Source: Octopus vulgaris | Taxonomy: Eukaryota | Reading direction: 5' to 3' | DNA length: 64,000 nt | NCBI GenBank assembly: GCA_951406725.2 | Contig: OX597843.1 | Span: 18,972,001-19,036,000, forward strand | Part shown: positions 51,409 through 60,667 of the stretch, in pieces | How the letters are laid out: every line of letters begins with the position of its first letter | How positions within the stretch are numbered: the stretch's first letter is position 1 | Notes under the pieces: model-generated | Seen by the model: only the letters and a program-made list of their open reading frames with translations | Database searches by the model: none | Told to the model about the DNA's origin: nothing | Program-made: the position numbers and the translations under genes

Positions 51409-54400
51409 AAATCACCAAAACAATTAAAACCATCCACTCTCGCCTCAACATTTTTGCTTAATGCCCAAGGCATCAGCCCTTCCACCAATACCCAAAAATG
51501 GAAGATATAATTCCTGGAGGACTGGGTCGATGCCCATCCAAACCACATCCCTTTCTTCGTCCTCACTGAAACCCATCTTAGTAACCTTCACTTGGAAGCC
51601 GAGGTGAAAGTTAAAAATTTCAAAGCCATTCGTGCTGATCGTGCTGGCAGAAGAAAGGGTGGGACTGCCATTTATGTTCATGATTCATTCTCAACAGAAG
51701 CTATGAACATATTTTCCAATGGATACTGCGAAGCAGTCGCTATATTCAGTCAAACCAACAACTTAACAGTAGTTGGGCTCTACAGACCACCCCAAACGCC
51801 CCTACCATGCTTCAAGGAATGCCTCAACAACATAAAGTGTTTCATTCAGCAGTGTCAACCTGACATCTTAATGATGGGGTGACTTCAACCTCCCCGGGGT
51901 TGATTGGTCTACAAACAGTCTGCCGCCAGGTTCTTATGTCTCAACCTCTGACAGGGAGGCAGCGGAATCGCTTCTTGGCTTCATGGATGATTTCTTCCTG
52001 TCCCAACTGGTGCTCGAACCAACGAGATGTCATAAAAACGTCTTAGACTTAATTTTCAGCAATCACACTGATACTATCCACAATATTGCAGTGGAGAAAA
52101 CCCTACTCTCCGACCATGACATGGTTCTCTGTGATCTGAGATTTCACCGGCCAAAATGCAAAACAAATGTCATCCCTCCTGTCCATCCATTTGACACTAT
52201 GGATTTCCACAATGCAAACTGGGAAGCGATCAATAATGATCTTGCACAAGTCGATTGGTCCTTCACGCACACATACACACCCACTAACATCAAAAAGTCC
52301 TGGCAGTCATTTGTAGACACCATTACGAACATATGTGCAAAACACACCCCATTAAGATCTGCAAACACATCTAAGTGTCGAATCCCTAGAAATAGAATAT
52401 CTCTCATCAGGAAAATTAAAAGAATTAACAAACAAATCAACAAGCTGAAATACTGTCAACAGCAACGCACCAACCTGACTGCCATCTCGTCGCTTGAGAT
52501 TAAAAAACATAAACTCCAAAACAACATGATGTCTATCATCAATAGTCAGCGAAGAGCTGAAGAGGCCTGGGCCATTGAGAAGATCAAACTCAATCCCAAA
52601 GTGTTCTTTTCATTTTCAAAAAAACACAGAGTCACTGGTTCTACTGTTGGCCCTCTGATTGATGAAAATGGTACTCTTCAAGACAATGCCAAAACAATCG
52701 GAGAGATATTGCAGAAACAATATTGCTCTGTTTTCAGCAATCCTGATATGACTGATCTGGGCTGTATCAGTGATGTTACCCCCCAATTCACTTTATCGGA
52801 CATAACTTTGGCGCTCCTGATGTCTTAGCAGCAATGAAGGAAATGAAACATAATTCAGCAGTAGGTCCAGTTAGGTTCCCTGCTTGTGTCTTGAAGATGT
52901 GTCAAAACCAACTTGCACACCCTCTAGCCAATCTGTGGCGGAACTCACTGGATACTGGATATATACCAGAAGACCTTCTATTCCAGTCTCTTGTCCCAGT
53001 TTTCAAAAAAGGAAACAAATCGCTTGCCGTGAATTACCGTCCAATCTCACTCACCTCTCATATCATTAAAGTATTTGAGAGAGTGCTGCGATCGCGTATG
53101 ACTCACTTCCTTGAGAGTGAGTCATACTGCATCATTTTGATGACATTTTGAGAGCCTTGGGAGAAGGTTCCAACACTGATGTCATCTACCTTGATTTCAG
53201 CAAGGCCTTTGACAGGGTTGATCATAAGATCCTTCTGAGAAAGCTGTCCAATATTGGTGTCACTGGAAAGCTGCTGCAGTGGATCAAGTGCTTCCTGTCT
53301 AACAGAACCCAACATGTTGTAGTCGAAGGAGTCAAATCTAGCCCAGCCAAAGTCAGCAGTGGTGTCCCAAAAGGCACTGTGTTGGGCCCACTTCTCTTCA
53401 TCATCTACATAAAAGATATTACTGACACCATCGAACACAGTAACATCAGAACCTTCGCTAATGATTCCAAGCTCCAGAAGGTCATCAATGGCGTGGATGA
53501 CCGAATAAGCCTTCAGTCAGACCTACTGACTGTTGTCCAATGGGCGGAAAAGAACATGTTGCTAAACGAAGACAAATTCGAACTGATCCATTTTGGAAGG
53601 GAGGACGCTCTGAAACTCCCATACTCCCTTCCTTCTGGAGAAATTCTCATGGCGTCCAACAACATCAGAGACTTGGGAGTAACAGTGGACAACAACATTA
53701 GCTTGGCTACACATATAAGCAGCAAAGTTGACATGGCCCGCAGAATGTGTTCCTGGATCCTCAGAACTTTCCAGTCGAGAGATTCCCACACTATTATCCT
53801 TCTCTTCTCCACTTTTGCCCGACCTCACCTTGAATACTGCTGTCCACTGTGGTCTCCCTACACAAAACAAAATATTATGAGAATTGAAGCTCCCCAAAGG
53901 TCAATCACAAAAAGGATAGATGGCATGTCAGACCTTGACTACTGGGGTAGACTAGAGAAGCTGAAACTGTATTCACCCCAACGACGCCGTGAACGCTACA
54001 TTATCTGTATGATGTGGAAAATATTCCATCAGCACTGTCCGAATGATGTTGGCATCACCTTCAAAATACATCCAAGGCTTTGACCACGTGCCCTCCGTCC
54101 ACAACAAAAATCCAAATCGCATCACATAACGACAATACGGCACAATTATTTCATCTCAATTGGACGCGCTCTCTTCAGCATTACACCAGGACAGGTCAAA
54201 ACAGAGACTGACCACACTAAATTCAAGAAGTCTTTGGACAACTTCCTTCAAACAGTCTCGGACAAACCACCCACACCCGGATATATCTCCGCAAACAATA
54301 ACTCTCTGCTCCAATGGGCCTCGGTGCCCAAATCCTGAGTTGAAAGACTTCGCCAGGTGGTGCTATTAAGTTAGACATGACCTGGGTCAATACTGGCCAA

Positions 54401-54415
54401 AACCTTTCTAAGTTA
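51409..54415 (+). mobile_element. CR1-like LINE ORF2 (endonuclease and RT) with frameshifts and an internal deletion
   Basis: LTETHL, RADR..KGGTAIYV, GLYRPP, GDFN, SDHDMV, NYRPISLTSH, YLDFSKAFDRVDH, GVPKGTVLGPLLF, RRRERY. Confidence 0.92.
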
Positions 54416-54693
54416 TTTTAAGTCATATATATATATTATATATATATATATATATATATATATATATATATATATATATATATATATATATATATATATA
54501 TATATATGTATTATGTATATATATATATATATATGTATATATCTATATATATATGTATATATATGTGTATATATATATATATATATATATATATATATAA
54601 TATATATATATATATATATATATATATATATATATATATATATATATATATATATATATATATATATATATATATATATATATATATATATAT

Positions 54694-59523: not shown

Positions 59524-59565
59524 TATATATATATATATATATATATATATATATATATATATATA

Positions 59566-60667
59566 TAACTTAGAAAGGTTTTGGCCAGTATTGGCCCAGG
59601 CCATGTCTAACTTAATAGCACCACCTGGCGAAGTCTTTCAACTCAGGATTTGGGCACCTAGGCCCATTGGAGCAGAGAGTTATTGTTTGAAGAGATATAT
59701 CAGCTTCTCTCGTCTACCCCAGTAGTCAAGGTCTGACATGCCATCTATCCTTTTTGTGACTGACCTTTGGGGAGCTTCAATTCTCATAATATTTTGTTTT
59801 GTGTAGGGAGACCACAGTGGACAGCAGTATTCAAGGTGGGGTCGGGCAAAAGTGGAGAAGAGAAGGATAATAGTGTGGGAATCTCTCGACTGGAAGGTTC
59901 TGAGAATCCAGGAACACATTCTGCGGGCCATGTCAACTTTGCTGCTTATATGTGTAGCCAAGCTAATGTTGTTGTCCACTGTTACTCCCAAGTCTCTGAT
60001 GTTGTTGGACGCCATGAGAATTTCTCCAGAAGGAAGGGAGTATGGGAGTTTCAGAGCGTCCTCCCTTCCAAAGTGGATCAGTTCGAATTTGTCTTCGTTT
60101 AGCAACATGTTCTTTTCCGCCCATTGGACAACAGCCAGTAGGTCTGACTGAAGGCTTATTCGGTCATCCACGCCATTGATGACCTTCTGGAGCTTGGAAT
60201 CATCAGCGAAGGTTCTGATGTTACTCTGTTTGATGGTGTCAGTAATATCTTTTATGTAGATGATGAAGAGAAGTGGGCCCAACACAGTGCCTTTTGGGAC
60301 ACCACTGCTGACTTTGGCTGGGCTGGATTTGACTCCTTCGACTACAACATGTTGGGTTCTGTTAGACATGAAGCACTTGATCCACTGCAGCAGCTTTCCA
60401 GTGACACCAATATTGGACAGCTTTCTCAGAAGGATCTTATGATCAACCCTGTCAAAGGCCTGCTGAAATCAAGGTAGATGACATCAGTGTTGGAACCTTC
60501 TCCCAAGGCTCTCAAAATGTCATCAAAATGATGTAGTAGCTGCGTCAGGCAATCTCTTCCATTACGGAATCCATGGTGGTTGGAGTTCAGCATATTATGA
60601 CTCTCAAGGAAGTGAGTCATACGCGATCTCAGCACTCTATCAAATATCTTAATGATATGAGAGGTGA
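59566..60667 (-). mobile_element. Inverted duplicate of the 3' part of the CR1-like LINE at 53051-54415
   Basis: Near-identical RT peptide, including the shared unusual residues GVPKG and IIYIKDI. Confidence 0.92.

What the first reader, a model, noticed from the sequence alone, without database searches (positions are those of the whole stretch)
53051..60667. 7.6 kb quasi-palindrome: PLE with inverted pLTRs plus inverted duplication of its flanking LINE
Order: CR1(+) - (TA)n - pLTR - EN - RT - inverted pLTR - (TA)n - CR1(-). The two CR1 arms share unusual residues (GVPKG, IIYIKDI, EKNMLLN), suggesting descent from one decayed local copy. Each has its own deletion: the left lacks [22 protein letters not shown] near 53120, and the right lacks most of the 3' region near 59700. 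They also differ by scattered substitutions, which argues against a read fold-back artefact. Inference: the process that makes inverted pLTRs also copied more than 1 kb of flanking DNA (3' transduction or target-templated fold-back), a route to PLE-driven inverted duplications.
Basis: partly seen in the sequence, partly recalled or inferred. Interest (0 to 1): 0.7.

Follow-up and report, generated by a model that had tools for sequence, protein, structure and literature searches.

The report
Old mirror duplication, later Penelope insertion
A decayed jumping gene (LINE) was copied in mirror image across a TA repeat, likely by the cell's own break repair, and a younger Penelope-like element that inserts into TA repeats likely landed in the middle later, so it probably did not make the duplication.

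Summary
The layout is real, and the two LINE arms do descend from one local decayed copy. A 25-mer over two shared variants occurs only twice in 2.8 Gb, and the arms form one clade at 97/97. The PLE-driven reading fails three tests. (1) Age: the LINE arms differ at 22 of 1048 sites, the pLTR arms at 1 of 419 (P=0.009), and the PLE from its nearest sampled relatives at 17 of 4350; one strict count is weaker (P=0.10). (2) Anatomy: the right PLE end carries a 54-nt tail that the left end lacks, so it is no copy of the left junction. (3) Survey: 0 of 40 sister insertions have adjacent mirrored flanks. All 37 paired insertions (the window's included) sit in (TA)n with one tailed and one tailless end, the known PLE layout. 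TA-centred mirror duplications with no copy of this PLE inside occur elsewhere: 3 verified in 1.0 Mb of evenly spaced tiles. Best reading: snap-back synthesis at a broken TA array made the mirror, then a TA-targeting PLE inserted. Reads could not confirm the assembly. The scan has noted the one-tail layout and PLE-centred palindromes before, on other pieces of this genome.

The parts
51334..51405 (.). (TA)36 array at the 5' end of the left LINE (its insertion target)
   Evidence: most truncated family copies also start at TA-type arrays
51406..54424 (+). Left LINE copy (APE endonuclease + RT, CR1-like by recalled motif resemblance), frameshifted; the original. Paired part is 53051-54416
   Evidence: Pfam Exo_endo_phos_2 and RVT_1; 95-97% to most of 28 genomic copies; 2286 first-look candidates
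53119..53124 (+). Left-arm-only deletion: 61 family nt replaced by 6 nt
54425..54691 (.). Left half of the central (TA)n array (about 267 nt)
54692..55110 (-). 3' pLTR of the long PLE arm, tailless end facing outward
55382..58963 (-). PLE ORF: N-terminal region, RT (DKSG, DVVSLY, GAAIG, YVDD), linker CTDNYCTVC, C-terminal GIY-YIG; broken by one copy-specific stop at 56327-56329
   Evidence: (GIY-YIG E=7e-4, below Pfam cut-off); sister copies hold open frames of 1310-1312 aa
59053..59523 (+). Short inverted PLE arm: pLTR 59053-59469 plus 54-nt tail 59470-59523, tailed end facing outward; 3-4 nt shared letters at the inversion junction
59296..59346 (+). Minimal hammerhead-like motif (CUGAUG...GAAA) in the pLTR; mirror copy at about 54815-54865 (-). 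Motif label recalled
   Evidence: fold z=-0.84, not significant; no Rfam hammerhead hit
59524..59564 (.). Right half of the central (TA)n array (about 41-44 nt)
59565..60667 (-). Right LINE arm: inverted local copy of 53051-54416, with its own 317-nt deletion at 59701/59702
60668..60889 (.). (TA)96 then (GA)15 array at the outer end of the copy, where synthesis is inferred to have rejoined the array
60887..61258 (.). One unit of a second, unrelated TA-associated tandem and fold-back repeat family; neighbour, not part of the mirror

Best explanation
The two LINE arms descend from one decayed local copy, and the mirror was likely made by snap-back DNA synthesis at a broken (TA)n array before a younger TA-targeting Penelope-like element likely inserted into the array between them. 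Step 1 (shown): a TA-targeting LINE inserted and gathered about 9 changes now shared by both arms. Step 2 (mechanism inferred): the TA array at its 3' end broke; the self-complementary TA end folded back, copied about 1.37 kb of the LINE in reverse, let go at 53051 and rejoined the rest of the array, giving LINE-(TA)n-mirror-(TA)n. Step 3 (shown): each arm then gathered 10-12 substitutions and one deletion of its own. Step 4 (layout shown, order inferred from divergence): the PLE cut the central array and inserted in its family's usual head-to-head form, both ends likely primed on element RNA at two start sites 54 nt apart, which pushed the arms 5 kb apart.
For: Local descent: a 25-mer over two shared variants has 2 matches in 2.8 Gb, the two arms; arms clade 97/97 among 29 rows; 6 of 9 shared substitutions scored change the amino acid, in conserved motifs too, as expected of decay in place. 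Age: 22/1048 between LINE arms against 1/419 between pLTR arms, P=0.009; against 17/4350 between the PLE and its best sampled relative per tile, P=3e-7; arm-specific 22/2096 against PLE variants with at most 2 carriers 20/4367, P=0.008. Anatomy: the tail is on the right end only, and both ends stop at the family's fixed positions. Family: 37 of 37 paired insertions are one tailed plus one tailless end in (TA)n. 0 of 40 others have adjacent mirrored flanks (35 scored, its one flag being microsatellite on inspection, plus 5 read by eye; 95% upper bound 7%). TA-centred mirrors with no copy of this PLE inside: L180 (arms 99%, only short 68-93% hits elsewhere), L162 (2 matches), L194 (arms 100%, other copies at most 91% and partial), L131:5997-6352 (2 matches). 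No mirrored continuation of the upstream DNA in the next 60 kb. Snap-back and foldback priming and TA-array breakage are published mechanisms.
Against: With the strictest count (variants in no sampled copy) the age gap is 13/2096 against 14/4367, P=0.10, and picking the best relative per tile biases the PLE figure low. The right arm lacks the 8-nt second tail unit next to the array, which a clean fold-back would have copied (1 extra slip needed). The right arm looks like a normal 5'-truncated, TA-bounded insertion of this LINE family. 5 of 8 left-only coding changes are synonymous, a mild hint of inherited variants. The outer junction has at most about 1 nt of shared letters. 1.37 kb is far longer than the other mirrors seen here (65-520 nt). 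The raw mirror rate at TA arrays (5 of 468) is not above shuffled pairs (33 of 4665), so that class rests on the genome-wide copy checks. L138 has a PLE inside a 520-nt local mirror whose arms differ at only 6 of 509 sites, though other elements lie between it and the PLE on both sides.
Confidence: 0.75

Rival explanations
1. A second LINE of the same family inserted independently, tail to tail, into the same TA array, and conversion between the adjacent inverted copies later spread the left copy's changes along the right one; the PLE came last.
For: The family targets TA-type arrays at both ends. The right arm's single tail unit and 5' truncation match normal insertions. Shared variants are sparse in the outermost 300 nt. 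5 of 8 left-only coding changes are synonymous.
Against: It needs conversion over about 1 kb. Shared and arm-specific variants are interspersed and near symmetric, 12 against 10. The left copy is as diverged outside the paired part (28/1285) as inside (19/1043). No exact tail-to-tail pair of this family with a 4-160 nt gap was found in the genome (exact patterns miss decayed pairs).
Confidence: 0.12
2. One reading: this PLE's insertion copied more than 1 kb of flank by 3' transduction or target-templated fold-back.
For: The PLE sits at the centre; the strict age test is only P=0.10; L138 is a second PLE inside a young local mirror; inverted duplications at L1 target sites are reported (PMC11702581 passages).
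Against: The tail asymmetry excludes copying of the left junction; transduced DNA would lie inside the TA arrays, not beyond them; three of four age comparisons give P<0.01; 0 of 40 sister insertions.
Confidence: 0.05
3. The fold-back came from an earlier, abortive cut by a TA-targeting retroelement endonuclease (PLE or LINE) acting in trans, or from insertion of the neighbouring unit at 60887-61258. This differs from the best explanation only in what broke the array.
For: The genome is full of TA-cutting families (1323, 2286 and 2022 first-look candidates). The neighbour's divergence (1 private and 3 rare variants in 365 nt) does not exclude a similar age.
Against: No insertion scar ties a cutter to this break. 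The neighbour's tailed end faces the mirror arm, so the arm would have to exist before it primed; its missing partner arm would be on the far side (inference).
Confidence: 0.15
4. Assembly artefact: two alleles of one LINE joined head to head through the PLE's inverted repeat.
For: No read or contig seen here spans the structure.
Against: The mirror stops after 1.1 kb and nothing upstream of 53051 recurs inverted in the next 60 kb; both PLE ends are the family's normal pair.
Confidence: 0.04

Closest known systems
EN+ Penelope-like element insertion units, Neptune/Nematis type (Craig et al. 2021, PMC8557442; seen: passages)
   Same: C-terminal GIY-YIG, CX2-5CxxC linker, inverted 5'-truncated copy, tail on one end only, (TA)n targets
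   Different: Tail is 54 nt rather than 30-40; the one-tail rule is strict here (37 of 37); clade not placed by RT phylogeny
Two RT start sites and both-strand cleavage and extension of Poseidon PAc (Frangieh et al. 2024, PMC11167929; seen: abstract, main text, start of methods)
   Same: The two ends differ by exactly the tail, as two start sites on the RNA predict
   Different: In vitro the paper saw no start-site difference between strands; here each insertion uses each site once
Snap-back SD-MMEJ (PMC5728401; seen: passages) and foldback-primed inverted duplication at double-strand breaks (PMC10622511; seen: abstract), with TA arrays as break sites (PMC13645644; seen: passages)
   Same: An inverted copy of the flank next to a self-complementary break end, rejoined across the break
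   Different: SD-MMEJ synthesis is described as limited and non-processive, and the yeast foldbacks give dicentric chromosomes; here a stable copy of about 1.37 kb lies inside a TA array. The polymerase is unknown
Local inversions and inverted duplications at L1 insertion sites (PMC11702581; seen: passages; Fig. S9 not seen)
   Same: Precedent for retroelement-cut ends folding back
   Different: There the rearrangement arises with the insertion; here it appears older than the central element

Membership tests
EN+ Penelope-like element (Neptune/Nematis type) | Single ORF with RT and C-terminal GIY-YIG | tested here: met
   YVDD-type RT motifs and GIY-YIG (Pfam E=7e-4, below cut-off); one copy-specific stop, sister frames 1310-1312 aa. 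Pfam and PDB gave no RT match
EN+ Penelope-like element (Neptune/Nematis type) | CX2-5CxxC linker motif before GIY-YIG | tested here: met
   CTDNYCTVC
EN+ Penelope-like element (Neptune/Nematis type) | pLTR in partial tandem and inverted units with one-sided tail | tested here: met
   internal tandem pLTR+tail junctions in long copies
EN+ Penelope-like element (Neptune/Nematis type) | Hammerhead motif in pLTR | tested here: inconclusive
   Core-like motif by eye; no Rfam hit; fold z=-0.84
EN+ Penelope-like element (Neptune/Nematis type) | RT phylogeny with Neptune or Nematis references | not tested
   No reference set on hand
CR1-clade LINE | APE endonuclease plus non-LTR RT, short tandem 3' tail | tested here: met
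   TTCTAAGTTA tail units
CR1-clade LINE | Placement in CR1 rather than L2 or a related clade by RT tree | not tested
PLE-driven flank duplication (3' transduction or target fold-back) | Duplication as old as the insertion | tested here: not met
   P=0.009, 0.008 and 3e-7 in three comparisons, P=0.10 in the strictest
PLE-driven flank duplication (3' transduction or target fold-back) | Copied side repeats the template junction | tested here: not met
   54-nt tail on the right only
PLE-driven flank duplication (3' transduction or target fold-back) | Recurs at sister insertions | tested here: not met
   0 of 40 adjacent; one non-adjacent case, L138
Snap-back or foldback duplication at a TA array | Local inverted copy centred on a self-complementary array | tested here: met
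Snap-back or foldback duplication at a TA array | Microhomology where the copy rejoins | tested here: inconclusive
   About 1 nt at 60667; 3 nt at L131
Snap-back or foldback duplication at a TA array | Dependence on Pol theta or Pol delta | not testable with these tools
   Needs experiments

The most novel reading that the evidence does not exclude
TA-cutting Penelope endonucleases also leave insertion-free scars: the cut TA end folds back and copies up to 1.4 kb of its own flank in mirror image. These scars would number on the order of ten thousand in this genome (about 3-4 per Mb sampled) and would be a hidden, transposon-driven route to local inverted duplication that later elements split open.
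Probability: 0.15. Interest if true: 0.6.

Novelty: new member of a known kind. Interest (0 to 1): 0.25.

Why it matters
It removes a tempting claim: a Penelope element at the centre of a palindrome is no evidence that it made the palindrome, because TA arrays seed mirrors and also attract these elements. The side result, TA-centred mirror duplications at roughly 3-4 per Mb, is a testable source of small structural variation in TA-rich genomes. The strict one-tail rule supports a two-start-site insertion model.

Tried and rejected
Read check: Logan contigs of 4 runs on 59053-60666 gave only short family-level pieces, none spanning; raw reads of 3 runs laid 0, 2 and 0 reads; both uninformative. 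One search's column table was void because loci were not oriented; redone. Searches for exact tail-to-tail LINE pairs with gaps of 4-34 and 35-160 nt found none. The first TA-mirror scan (400 kb) missed L180 and L131:5997-6352 through masking; the second (1.0 Mb) found 5 of 468, missed L180, and two of its five (L184, L202) match repeats elsewhere in the sample; L213 was not checked genome-wide. Non-TA arrays gave 1 of 586, a repeat. In the flank survey, 53 loci were examined; 36 other insertions were paired automatically and 35 scored (L133 had a short flank), 5 more were read by eye, and the rest had an end outside the locus or a damaged end. Rfam and PDB searches did not place the hammerhead or the PLE RT. 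Conversion from a younger copy was looked for as lower divergence in the paired part and not seen. Literature searches turned up no paper on PLE-made flank inversions or on genome-wide TA-centred mirrors; the library lacks most subscription papers, and Fig. S9 of PMC11702581 was not seen.

Full report
Observation. The window lies at G000:C30:18972001-19036000 in a 2.8-Gb genome. The described order is present. The LINE arms (53051-54416 plus, 59565-60667 minus) differ by 22 substitutions in 1048 columns, after dropping alignment noise at a deletion edge, and each has its own deletion. The pLTR arms differ by 1 substitution and a 2-nt indel in 419. The left LINE continues unpaired to about 51406 and is the original. 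The right arm is bounded by TA arrays at both ends.

Shared descent is real. Against 28 other family copies (the best hits among 40 scored of 2286 candidates), the arms share 7 rare substitutions, a 3-nt deletion and 2 common polymorphisms; 12 substitutions are left-only and 10 right-only. A 25-mer over two shared variants matches only the two arms in the whole genome. The arms form a clade at 97/97 in a tree of 29 rows, L059 left out. The odd motifs are absent from 27-28 of 28 copies, and 6 of 9 shared substitutions scored change the amino acid, which fits decay in place before duplication.

The central element. [quoted passage not shown] It has one copy-specific stop, while sister copies hold frames of 1310-1312 aa. 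The family is young and large (1323 first-look candidates). All 37 automatically paired insertions, the window's included, lie in (TA)n with two 3' ends facing outward, one with the 54-nt tail and one without. Inverted copies, one-sided tails and TA targets are described in PMC8557442, and two RT start sites with extension of both strands in PMC11167929. The window's PLE is thus an ordinary insertion of its family.

Three tests of the PLE-driven model. Age: LINE arm against arm 22/1048 versus pLTR arms 1/419 (P=0.009); versus the PLE's best sampled relative per tile 17/4350 (P=3e-7, biased low by choosing the best); arm-specific 22/2096 versus lenient PLE count 20/4367 (P=0.008); strictest count 13/2096 versus 14/4367 (P=0.10). 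One search used slightly different tallies with the same direction. Anatomy: a fold-back or read-through copy of the left junction would be tailless, but the right end has the tail and stops at the family's fixed position. Recurrence: 0 of 40 other insertions have adjacent mirrored flanks. One locus, L138, has a PLE inside a local 520-nt mirror of an old repeat (arms 96% by the search, other copies at most 90%; 6 mismatches in 509), but 409 and 819 nt of other elements separate it from the PLE, so it was not copied outward from the insertion site. Its low divergence is the best point left for a PLE link.

What made the mirror. TA-centred mirrors with no copy of this PLE inside exist. L180 has arms of about 230 nt at 99% with only short weak hits elsewhere. 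L162 and L131:5997-6352 each match only their own two arms. L194 has arms at 100% against at most 91% for other copies. In L180, L194 and L131 one arm is bounded by TA at both ends, as in the window. That makes 3 verified and 1 unchecked (L213) in 100 evenly spaced 10-kb tiles. The raw scan rate (5 of 468) does not exceed shuffled pairs (33 of 4665); I attribute that to repeat ends dominating the control (inference). I infer a break in the TA array, snap-back of the self-complementary end, synthesis along the flank and rejoining to the array. Each step has precedent (PMC13645644 passages; PMC10622511 abstract; PMC5728401 passages), but none was shown here, and 1.37 kb is long for such repair. 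Against it: the right arm lacks the 8-nt second tail unit and resembles a normal truncated insertion of this TA-targeting LINE, so independent insertion plus conversion keeps about 12%. What broke the array is unknown; an abortive cut by a TA-targeting element is possible.

Artefact check. Nothing upstream of the paired part recurs inverted in the next 60 kb. Public contigs and reads could neither confirm nor refute the join.

Verdict. A real, local inverted duplication of a decayed LINE, later split by an ordinary PLE insertion. Earlier notes of this scan report the one-tail layout and PLE-centred palindromes on other pieces of this genome; they were leads only. Those notes call the genome an octopus; I did not test that. 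Interest 0.25.

Noticed in passing
L069, L071-L082, L113-L152: Strict one-tail rule: 37 of 37 paired PLE insertions (window included) have exactly one tailed and one tailless outward end; at one diagnostic pLTR site all copies within a locus agree in 30 of 32 loci.
   Followed up: yes
L180:8703-9378, L162:4190-4407, L194:6700-7310, L131:5997-6352, L213:1165-1325: TA-centred local mirror duplications with no copy of this PLE inside, arms 65-230 nt; four verified as local by genome search. L180 shows an 8-nt templated repeat at its outer junction.
   Followed up: partly
L138:1464-8611: 520-nt TA-bounded piece of an old repeat copied in mirror image, with a Helitron-like piece, this PLE and a Tc1/mariner-like piece (labels recalled) nested between the arms.
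   Followed up: partly
window 60887-61258 and 29257-29664: A second abundant TA-associated repeat (about 364-nt tandem unit, 49-nt one-sided tail, 2022 first-look candidates) with PLE-like fold-back layout; the copy at 60887 lacks its inverted arm.
   Followed up: partly
window 61290-64000: Start of another LINE-like element: a zinc-knuckle ORF (Pfam zf-CCHC), then an endonuclease-like frame at 63145 (resemblance recalled, no Pfam hit).
   Followed up: no
L074:3829-4271, L076:1161-2039 and 5759-8334, L133:7796-9404, L136:7256-9459, L153:2097-4763, L070:2862-9193: Many near-perfect palindromes next to TA arrays that do not match this PLE, probably other fold-back families; in L076 one lies nested inside a copy of this PLE.
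   Followed up: no
window 53963-54279: The part of the left LINE that the right arm has lost is more diverged from the family (12 of 317) than the paired part (19 of 1043) or the upstream part (28 of 1285); unexplained, may be chance.
   Followed up: no
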